Assembly (NCBI GenBank): GCA_964016885.1
Contig: OZ024746.1
Span: forward strand, 78,554,001 to 78,618,000
DNA: 64,000 nucleotides
Source: Eledone cirrhosa
Taxonomy: Eukaryota
Direction of reading: 5' to 3'
The notes under the pieces: generated by a model
What the model saw: the letters and a program-made list of their open reading frames with translations, nothing else
Databases searched by the model: none
What the model was told of the DNA's origin: nothing
Part shown: in pieces, positions 16,622-16,804 of the stretch
Layout: every line of letters starts with the position of its first letter
Numbering within the stretch: the first letter of the stretch is position 1
Translations under genes and position numbers: made by a program

Positions 16622-16799
16622 AAGGAAATGTGGTAAGGAACCAGGTGGACCATAACGCACCAAAGTACTCAATACTTAGGGTAGTAGAGTGGGTAATAGG
16701 AACGAGTAAGACCCCGACGGCTGAGCTCAAGCCATTTCGACGGCTAATTCTGGTAGCCGTCGAAACGGCTTGAGCTCAGCCGTCGGGGTCCTACTCGTT

Positions 16800-16804
<5 letters not shown>
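16615..16804 (-). mobile_element. Family C element ending in a fold-back hairpin containing the 3' half of a hammerhead
   Basis: Palindrome 16696-16804; arm reads gccgtc-GAAA-cggct tgagctc agccg-TC/ggggtc; copies at 59684-59955 and 62317-62354. Confidence 0.75.

What the first reader, a model, noticed from the sequence alone, without database searches (positions are those of the whole stretch)
16696..16804. Fold-back exactly on hammerhead stem II (family C) erases the CUGANGA half
Seen: each arm reads gccguc-GAAA-cggcu(7-nt loop)agccg-UC/gggguc, a near-perfect HHR 3' half with full stem III and GUC site. The palindrome centre is the stem II hairpin gacggcta/tagccgtc. The same centre is used at 59684-59783, where the arms carry their own matched variants (aaaaagtatg vs aacgagtaag). 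Inference: nascent cDNA self-primes on the ribozyme's stem II to start second-strand synthesis. The predicted master reads gacccc-CUGANGA-gacggc.
Basis: partly seen in the sequence, partly recalled or inferred. Interest (0 to 1): 0.75.

Follow-up and report, generated by a model that had tools for sequence, protein, structure and literature searches.

The report
Twin-primed Penelope mini-palindrome, ribozyme footprint
This palindrome is one of tens of thousands of tiny insertions of a Penelope-like retrotransposon, likely made when both broken DNA ends copy the same RNA up to its 5' end and the two copies are joined head to head, and a minority of copies stop exactly at the element's predicted hammerhead cut site, which suggests the ribozyme cuts in vivo.

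Summary
The palindrome is real. It is a ~190-bp insertion into (TA)n of a Hydra-clade Penelope-like element (PLE); a 29-mer of its tail has 25,280 exact hits in the genome. An intact master exists (719-aa RT-endonuclease ORF). Its hammerhead core is mostly UUGANAA (U3-A8 variant), not CUGANGA, and stem II carries a 37-nt loop.

Inversion points are not random. With 0 as the predicted cut, the outer ends sit at +97 (tail arm) and +20. Inner ends pile up at -33 to -47, with a near-hard stop at -45, an initiator-like A.

Self-priming on stem II is not supported. Its predicted products are absent (0 genome-wide; 0 of 55 loci), and the short arm often reaches further 5' than the arm it would have to copy (20 of 68).

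Best reading: two cDNAs primed from the two target ends run off one RNA's 5' end and are end-joined. A second class of up to ~419 loci centres at the cut (28 of 49 listed have both arms ending exactly there), which suggests in vivo cleavage. The architecture is known for PLEs; these junction statistics were not found in my searches and make the mechanism testable.

The parts
16574..16616 (.). (TA)n target microsatellite, left side
   Evidence: TA runs flank both ends in 66 of 68 two-armed copies
16619..16753 (-). Arm A: element positions +96 to -38 relative to the predicted hammerhead cut; element sense is on the - strand; inferred cDNA primed at the +97 site
16619..16695 (-). 77-nt PLE 'tail' (+20 to +96), the sequence between the two inferred RT start sites; in the master it leads into the ORF (ATG at +190)
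16753..16754 (.). Head-to-head junction (arm A ends at -38, arm B starts at -31), no microhomology; the 7-nt 'loop' is arm A's unmatched overhang
   Evidence: compared with the master
16754..16804 (+). Arm B: element positions -31 to +19; inferred cDNA primed at the +20 site through TAT microhomology with the target
   Evidence: 67 of 75 arm B outer ends at +20
16754..16789 (+). 3' half of a type I hammerhead: stem II 3' strand, GAAA (16762-16765), stem III, GUC (16782-16784, predicted cut after 16784), stem I 3' strand; the 5' half is absent from this copy
   Evidence: sequence; master fold
16802..16866 (.). (TA)n target microsatellite, right side
59681..59864 (+). Second insertion of the same family, other subfamily: arm B 59681-59738 (-, ends at -38), arm A with tail 59738-59864 (+, starts at -29); here arm B reaches further 5' than arm A
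59891..59968 (-). Third insertion: tail arm (+96 to about +25) joined to a few bases of arm B
62312..62352 (-). Fragment of arm B next to (TA)n

Best explanation
This is a short insertion of a Hydra-clade Penelope-like retrotransposon in a TA repeat, likely made when both cut target ends prime reverse transcription on one RNA (at +97 and +20), both cDNAs run off the RNA's 5' end, and the two ends are likely joined head to head by end-joining. Shown: the master ORF and hammerhead, fixed outer ends, clustered inner ends, copy-specific junctions and arm concordance. Inferred: priming from both target ends, use of a single RNA, and end-joining. Inferred with less confidence (about 0.55): the main RNA 5' end at -45/-41 is a transcription start inside hammerhead stem II, which is why the 5' half of the ribozyme is missing. 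Inferred (about 0.75): a minor template class begins at the ribozyme cut, so the U3-A8 hammerhead cleaves in vivo.
For: Outer ends are fixed: arm A at +97, arm B at +20 in 67 of 75, although TAT also occurs at +41 and +61. +20 also ends direct full-length copies. In L108, arm A is ~830 nt and arm B ~5 kb, so B cannot be a copy of A. In L056 the arms do not overlap. B reaches further 5' than A in 20 of 68, A further in 16; by 20 nt or more the split is 11 versus 2, as twin priming on one RNA predicts. Junctions are blunt (13), overlapping by 1 to 5 or more nt (33), or filled (22). Mirror 4-5-nt microhomology classes occur in both directions. 27 of 55 loci reaching -45 are loop-less palindromes with a 2-nt overlap (hand count). 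Inner ends lie at -33 to -47 in 57 of 100 A arms and 58 of 75 B arms. Alleles match between arms: 59/61, 66/67 and 64/67, against 30.7, 34.0 and 23.7 expected. At the cut, 28 of 49 listed loci have both arms at exactly 0. Mixed 0/long junctions are few: 36 of the first 100 of 339 matches, about 120 loci, against thousands expected from independent RNAs (my estimate). Sister families stop at -37 to -46 and -39 to -49, with an initiator-like A at -45 and -46. In vitro, a PLE protein cuts and extends both strands from two RNA start sites that bound the tail (PMC11167929).
Against: No RNA evidence was obtained for the -45 start or for cleavage. Position -45 is also the first base after the apical loop of stem II, so start site and structure are confounded in this family. 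The initiator consensus is recalled and low in information (2-5 matches per 200 nt), and the three families are related, so they are not independent tests. No clear excess of cap-templated G was seen (9 of 100 rows). Arm concordance and the shared stop at 0 fit snap-back equally well, and asymmetric deletion after insertion could explain some B-longer cases. Rfam finds no hammerhead in the master. One master copy (L058) folds better in a non-hammerhead form (-29.4 versus -26.7), and 3 of 14 cores break the 3-8 pair. Cut sites in the sister families were placed by eye and their MFE folds were not hammerheads. The sample comes from the first ~27 Mb of one chromosome. Several counts are hand counts of the first 100 listed rows.
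Confidence: 0.68

Rival explanations
1. Snap-back at the template end: one cDNA runs from +97 to the RNA 5' end, folds back on itself by microhomology, copies itself to +20 and joins the target; later deletions reshape the centre.
For: Arms match in alleles, both arms stop together at 0, and centres are palindromic. Self-priming was proposed for PLE palindromes, on an antisense template (PMC3846280).
Against: B is longer than A in 20 of 68, by 20 nt or more in 11 versus 2. L108 has a 5-kb arm B against a 0.8-kb arm A, and L056 has non-overlapping arms. Centres with 0-1-nt loops are common. +20 is also the end of direct, full-length arms.
Confidence: 0.17
2. Same twin priming, but the -45 stop comes from RNA structure, bound protein or a nuclease cut at the stem II apex, not from a transcription start.
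For: -45 is the first base 3' of the apical loop. In the sister families the stop is at the start of predicted stem I. No cap signature was seen.
Against: The stop lies in different structural elements in different families but at the same distance and on an initiator-like A. A second pile at -41 is also an initiator-like A. Penelope has an internal pLTR promoter (PMC2377424).
Confidence: 0.25
3. One reading: nascent cDNA self-primes on the complement of hammerhead stem II.
For: In this family the inner ends do fall in the 3' strand of stem II.
Against: The predicted loop-retaining products are absent: 0 hits against 4,695 crossing arms, and 0 of 55 loci. Most arms never copy the 5' strand they would need. 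Sister families stop outside stem II.
Confidence: 0.04
4. An inherited palindromic MITE-like or SINE-like unit that spreads as a ready-made hairpin.
For: Very high copy number, and nearly uniform length and outer ends.
Against: 67 distinct junctions in 75 copies. The tail arm lies on either side, and an autonomous unfolded master shares the same ends.
Confidence: 0.03

Closest known systems
Hydra clade of Penelope-like elements (Craig et al. 2021, PMC8557442; section 11, passages and supplement passages read)
   Same: Single ORF with C-terminal GIY-YIG-type region, RWK-type motif (RWR), DKT, CxCx5C linker, CxxC and CxH, (TA)n targeting, hammerhead in the pLTR; the printed Hydra alignment matches block by block by eye.
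   Different: Not the listed Hydra-1_Obim (different protein; my motif searches gave 0 hits in the supplement). About 1.2-kb 3' UTR, U3-A8 core with a long stem II, a 77-nt tail rather than 30-40 bp, and most copies are ~190-bp palindromes.
Inverted pLTR plus optional tail of Penelope/Poseidon elements (PMC3846280 passages; PMC8557442 Fig. 2 legend)
   Same: Head-to-head inverted arms, a tail on one end only, palindromes at the inverted junction.
   Different: Those passages explain the palindromes by self-priming on an antisense template; the junctions here favour two independently primed cDNAs with a fixed inner stop.
Poseidon PAc in vitro mechanism (Frangieh et al. 2024, PMC11167929; parts 1-2 of 4 read)
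   Same: Two internal RT start sites bounding the tail, both target strands cut and extended, predicted dimer, AT-rich target.
   Different: Different clade. The parts I read do not explain inverted arms or report a fixed 5' stop, and the authors found no RNA reads ending at the hammerhead cut, whereas insertions here end at it.
LINE-1 twin priming (recalled; seen only in search listings)
   Same: Both target ends prime on one RNA and the cDNA ends are joined by microhomology.
   Different: In L1 the second site is random and the arms do not overlap; here both sites are fixed and the arms usually overlap up to the RNA 5' end.
Non-LTR retrozymes (10.64898/2026.07.22.740005, part 1 of 5 read)
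   Same: Short non-coding PLE-derived repeats with type I hammerheads.
   Different: Retrozymes are tandem direct units with complete ribozymes; these are single inverted insertions with half a ribozyme and are probably dead on arrival.

Membership tests
PLE, Hydra clade | Single ORF, RT then C-terminal GIY-YIG endonuclease | tested here: met
   719-aa ORF with YRDD and YIG. No Pfam hit on the query itself; homologues carry PF26215 and the top hit PF01541
PLE, Hydra clade | RWK motif and DKG changed to DKT | tested here: met
   RWR at 37, DKT at 117; 114 and 112 of 120 homologues
PLE, Hydra clade | CxCx5C linker; CxxC and CxH in the endonuclease | tested here: met
   positions 572, 670, 698; 111, 110 and 110 of 120 homologues
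PLE, Hydra clade | Insertion into (TA)n | tested here: met
   66 of 68 two-armed copies have TA runs on both sides
PLE, Hydra clade | Placement in the Hydra clade on an RT tree | not tested
   reference proteins were seen only as paper text; compared by eye
PLE | pLTR from a partial tandem, inverted 5'-truncated arm, tail at one end | tested here: met
   L108 cluster
Type I hammerhead (master pLTR) | Three stems around the core in type I order | tested here: met
   unconstrained fold of L067 gives the three-way junction at -27.5 kcal/mol; L058 prefers another fold
Type I hammerhead (master pLTR) | Canonical CUGANGA core | tested here: not met
   0 of 14; UUGANAA in 11. U3-A8 is a natural variant reported active in vitro (PMC3088659 passage)
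Type I hammerhead (master pLTR) | GAAA and NUH triplet | tested here: met
   GAAA in all 14 (required by the search expression); GUC in 13, GUU in 1
Type I hammerhead (master pLTR) | Match to an Rfam hammerhead model | tested here: not met
   0 matches at E<=10
Type I hammerhead (master pLTR) | Self-cleavage | not testable with these tools
   indirect only: arms end exactly at the predicted cut
Type I hammerhead (window copy) | Complete core | tested here: not met
   5' half absent
MITE | One inherited internal structure between terminal inverted repeats | tested here: not met
   67 distinct junctions in 75
Non-LTR retrozyme | Tandem direct units each with a full hammerhead | tested here: not met
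   single inverted insertions with half a ribozyme

The most novel reading that the evidence does not exclude
These palindromes are paired 'strong-stop' cDNAs. The promoter (-45) and the 3' ribozyme cut (0) give the genomic RNA a 45-nt terminal redundancy; the RT starts near the 5' end, runs off, and jumps to the RNA's 3' end through that repeat. This would regenerate pseudo-LTRs and tandems by a retrovirus-like strand transfer whose repeat is set by a promoter and a ribozyme, and failed jumps would leave the mini-palindromes that dominate the family.
Probability: 0.25. Interest if true: 0.82.

Novelty: new variant of a known kind. Interest (0 to 1): 0.58.

Why it matters
[quoted passage not shown] Tens of thousands of independent junctions in one genome act as a natural readout. 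They favour two-ended priming on one RNA, predict the RNA's 5' end to the base, and give a DNA-level sign that a PLE hammerhead cleaves in vivo, which RNA reads did not show for PAc. A template of about 140 nt is enough for a direct in vitro test. The U3-A8 core also shows why CUGANGA-based screens miss such ribozymes.

Tried and rejected
Rfam on the window gave only low-complexity and hairpin matches (miRNA families and one viral UTR family) below threshold among the 150 of 414 rows shown; none on the master pLTR. The CUGANGA master search gave 17 hits, all junction fillers, chance flanks or joins to other families. My first, recalled guess of the Neptune clade was dropped after the motif check. 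Pfam on the ORF gave 0 families. The cap-templated G test was inconclusive: G in 9 of the first 100 rows, many rows being masters of other subfamilies; one-base centres were G/C 4 and A/T 0, which a start at -46 would also give. Sequencing runs: no RNA holder listed, so no reads were laid. One search was meant to show the bases after the pattern but trailing N were ignored, so it served only as a denominator. The frequent arm mismatch at +6 among the best BLAST hits was set aside as query bias; the unbiased rate is 1 of 67. Seven of 75 rows were dropped before the counts (L082, L090, L092, L096, L149, L150, L155: internal repeat, split arm or different layout); one search counts include them (B longer in 22 of 75). 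Earlier-findings look-ups returned nothing. Paper searches found no description of these palindromes or of twin priming in PLEs; the library lacks most subscription papers, and Cervera and de la Pena 2014 and Evgen'ev and Arkhipova 2005 were not read.

Full report
Observation. The palindrome at 16696-16804 is real: two 51-nt arms, two mismatched pairs and a 7-nt centre. It is part of a larger unit, 16619-16804, set in (TA)n, whose left arm carries an extra 77 nt. A second copy lies at 59681-59864, with fragments at 59891-59968 and 62312-62352. In the genome (G000, 3.0 Gb, host not identified) a tail 29-mer has 25,280 exact hits and a 25-mer near the centre 17,544; reversed controls gave 0.

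The master. Unfolded copies turned up among loci chosen without that assumption. They continue upstream through a 37-nt loop, the stem II 5' strand, a UUGANAA core and a cccc stem I. Of 14 distinct copies the core was UUGAGAA in 6, UUGAUAA in 5, CUGAGAA in 2 and GUGAGAA in 1. The unconstrained fold of copy L067 gives a type I three-way junction; copy L058 prefers another fold by 2.7 kcal/mol. Rfam gives no match. U3-A8 is a natural covariant of C3-G8, reported active in vitro (PMC3088659, passages). Upstream lie a ~1.2-kb 3' UTR and an endonuclease region, and L108 holds an intact 719-aa ORF that starts 190 nt after the predicted cut. Its motifs (RWR, DKT, CxCx5C, CxxC, CxH) and (TA)n targeting match the Hydra clade (PMC8557442 section 11) and are shared by 110-114 of 120 homologues. 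It is not the listed Hydra-1_Obim. No tree was built.

Junction map. Coordinates: 0 is the first base after GUC in copy L067. I took the first 100 tail hits on one chromosome, chosen without regard to the junction. 75 had an inverted arm within 140 nt. The tail arm (A) ends at +97, and the other arm (B) at +20 in 67 of 75. Inner ends fall at -33 to -47 in 57 of 100 A arms and 58 of 75 B arms, against a uniform share of 9%. Eight A arms cross into the UTR (9 flagged, one an artefact). Junctions are nearly all different (67 of 75). Arms share subfamily alleles: 59/61, 66/67 and 64/67 against 30.7, 34.0 and 23.7 expected. The focal copy is an exception at +6.

Self-priming on stem II needs the cDNA to cross the loop and would keep that loop at the centre. 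The proximal-stem product has 0 hits, although 4,695 arms cross the loop; these patterns cover the main subfamilies only. The apical product is seen in 0 of 55 listed loci, whereas 27 of 55 are loop-less palindromes joined through a 2-nt overlap at -45 (hand count of the first 100 of 1,328 rows).

One cDNA or two. Arm B cannot template the tail, so under snap-back it must lie within arm A. After dropping 7 rows, B reaches further 5' in 20 of 68 and A in 16; for differences of 20 nt or more the split is 11 to 2. In L108 arm A is ~830 nt and arm B ~5 kb, ending at +20; in L056 the arms do not overlap. Junctions are blunt, microhomologous or filled. This fits two cDNAs primed from the two target ends and end-joined (inference). 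It agrees with the in vitro result that a PLE protein cuts and extends both strands from two RNA sites bounding the tail (PMC11167929, parts 1-2 of 4). Later asymmetric deletion of a snap-back hairpin cannot be fully excluded.

A second stop at the ribozyme cut. About 419 loci are palindromes centred near 0 (control 5). Of 49 listed, 28 have both arms at exactly 0 (21 with 1-6 filler bases; 7 blunt, where a 1-nt extension is indistinguishable), 6 at 0 with +1 or +2, 2 with an arm at -1, and 13 with an arm reaching -2 to -10 (hand count). This is what templates with a ribozyme-cut 5' end would leave (inference). Mixed junctions, one arm at 0/-1 and the other past -33, make up 36 of the first 100 of 339 matches, about 120 loci. 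Independent RNAs would give thousands by my estimate, so both arms likely read one RNA, or two RNAs processed alike.

What sets -45. It is the A of an initiator-like TCATTT, and the second pile at -41 is also an initiator-like A (consensus recalled). It is also the first base after the apical loop. Two sister families with Hydra-like ORFs nearby (27,663 and 26,263 hits) have the same two-ended layout. Their short arms stop at -37 to -46 (8 of 30 loci) and -39 to -49 (11 of 30) from cut sites placed by eye, with initiator-like As at -45 and -46; there the stop is at stem I, upstream of or at the core. So the shared features are distance and initiator, not stem II. Penelope has an internal pLTR promoter (PMC2377424, passages and Discussion). 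Against this: the motif is common (2-5 per 200 nt), the families are related, and the cap-G test was inconclusive. I put the start-site reading at about 0.55.

Comparison and novelty. Inverted arms with a one-sided tail are standard for PLEs (PMC8557442, passages), and junction palindromes were ascribed to self-priming on an antisense template (PMC3846280, passages). The element is a new Hydra family. The mini-palindrome class, its fixed inner stop, the case for twin priming and the footprint at the cut were not found in searches; subscription papers, two key older papers and the Frangieh supplement were not seen. Verdict: new variant of a known kind, interest 0.58. The boldest reading not excluded is a strong-stop and strand-transfer cycle through a 45-nt redundancy (probability 0.25); nothing here tests the transfer step.

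Noticed in passing
window 59449-59670 and 50434-50545: Palindromic mini-insertions of two other Hydra-like families (26,263 and 27,663 exact hits) with the same tail-plus-short-arm layout; the first has a non-canonical CAGAAGA core.
   Followed up: partly
window 54336-54489, 54595-54927, 53301-53460: Further fold-back elements with hammerhead-like motifs; at 54595-54927 both arms keep a complete CUGAUGA-GAAA motif and the centre lies ~60 nt upstream of it.
   Followed up: no
L016 flank (G000:C4:256412567-256415755): Tandem ~250-nt repeat, each unit with a CUGAUGA...GAAAC motif; looks like a non-LTR retrozyme array.
   Followed up: no
L031, L034, L041, L224/L225: Chimeric insertions in which an arm of this family is joined to an arm of another family, suggesting that RNAs of different families can meet in one insertion event.
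   Followed up: no
L063, L101 flank: Related family whose hammerhead-like motif is degenerate (AUGAUAA and GAGA in place of GAAA), so the fold may be kept without catalysis.
   Followed up: no
L106, L113, L169, L177, L178: Solo tails (+17 to +25 through +97) between TA runs, as expected if the second primer anneals at +17-20 but is not extended.
   Followed up: partly
L067 positions -95 to +19: Stem I of the hammerhead extends to about +16, next to the +20 start site, so the fold may help position the second priming site.
   Followed up: no
L108:986-2176 (-) and L050 upstream flank: Fragments of other LINE-type reverse transcriptase frames next to these insertions.
   Followed up: no
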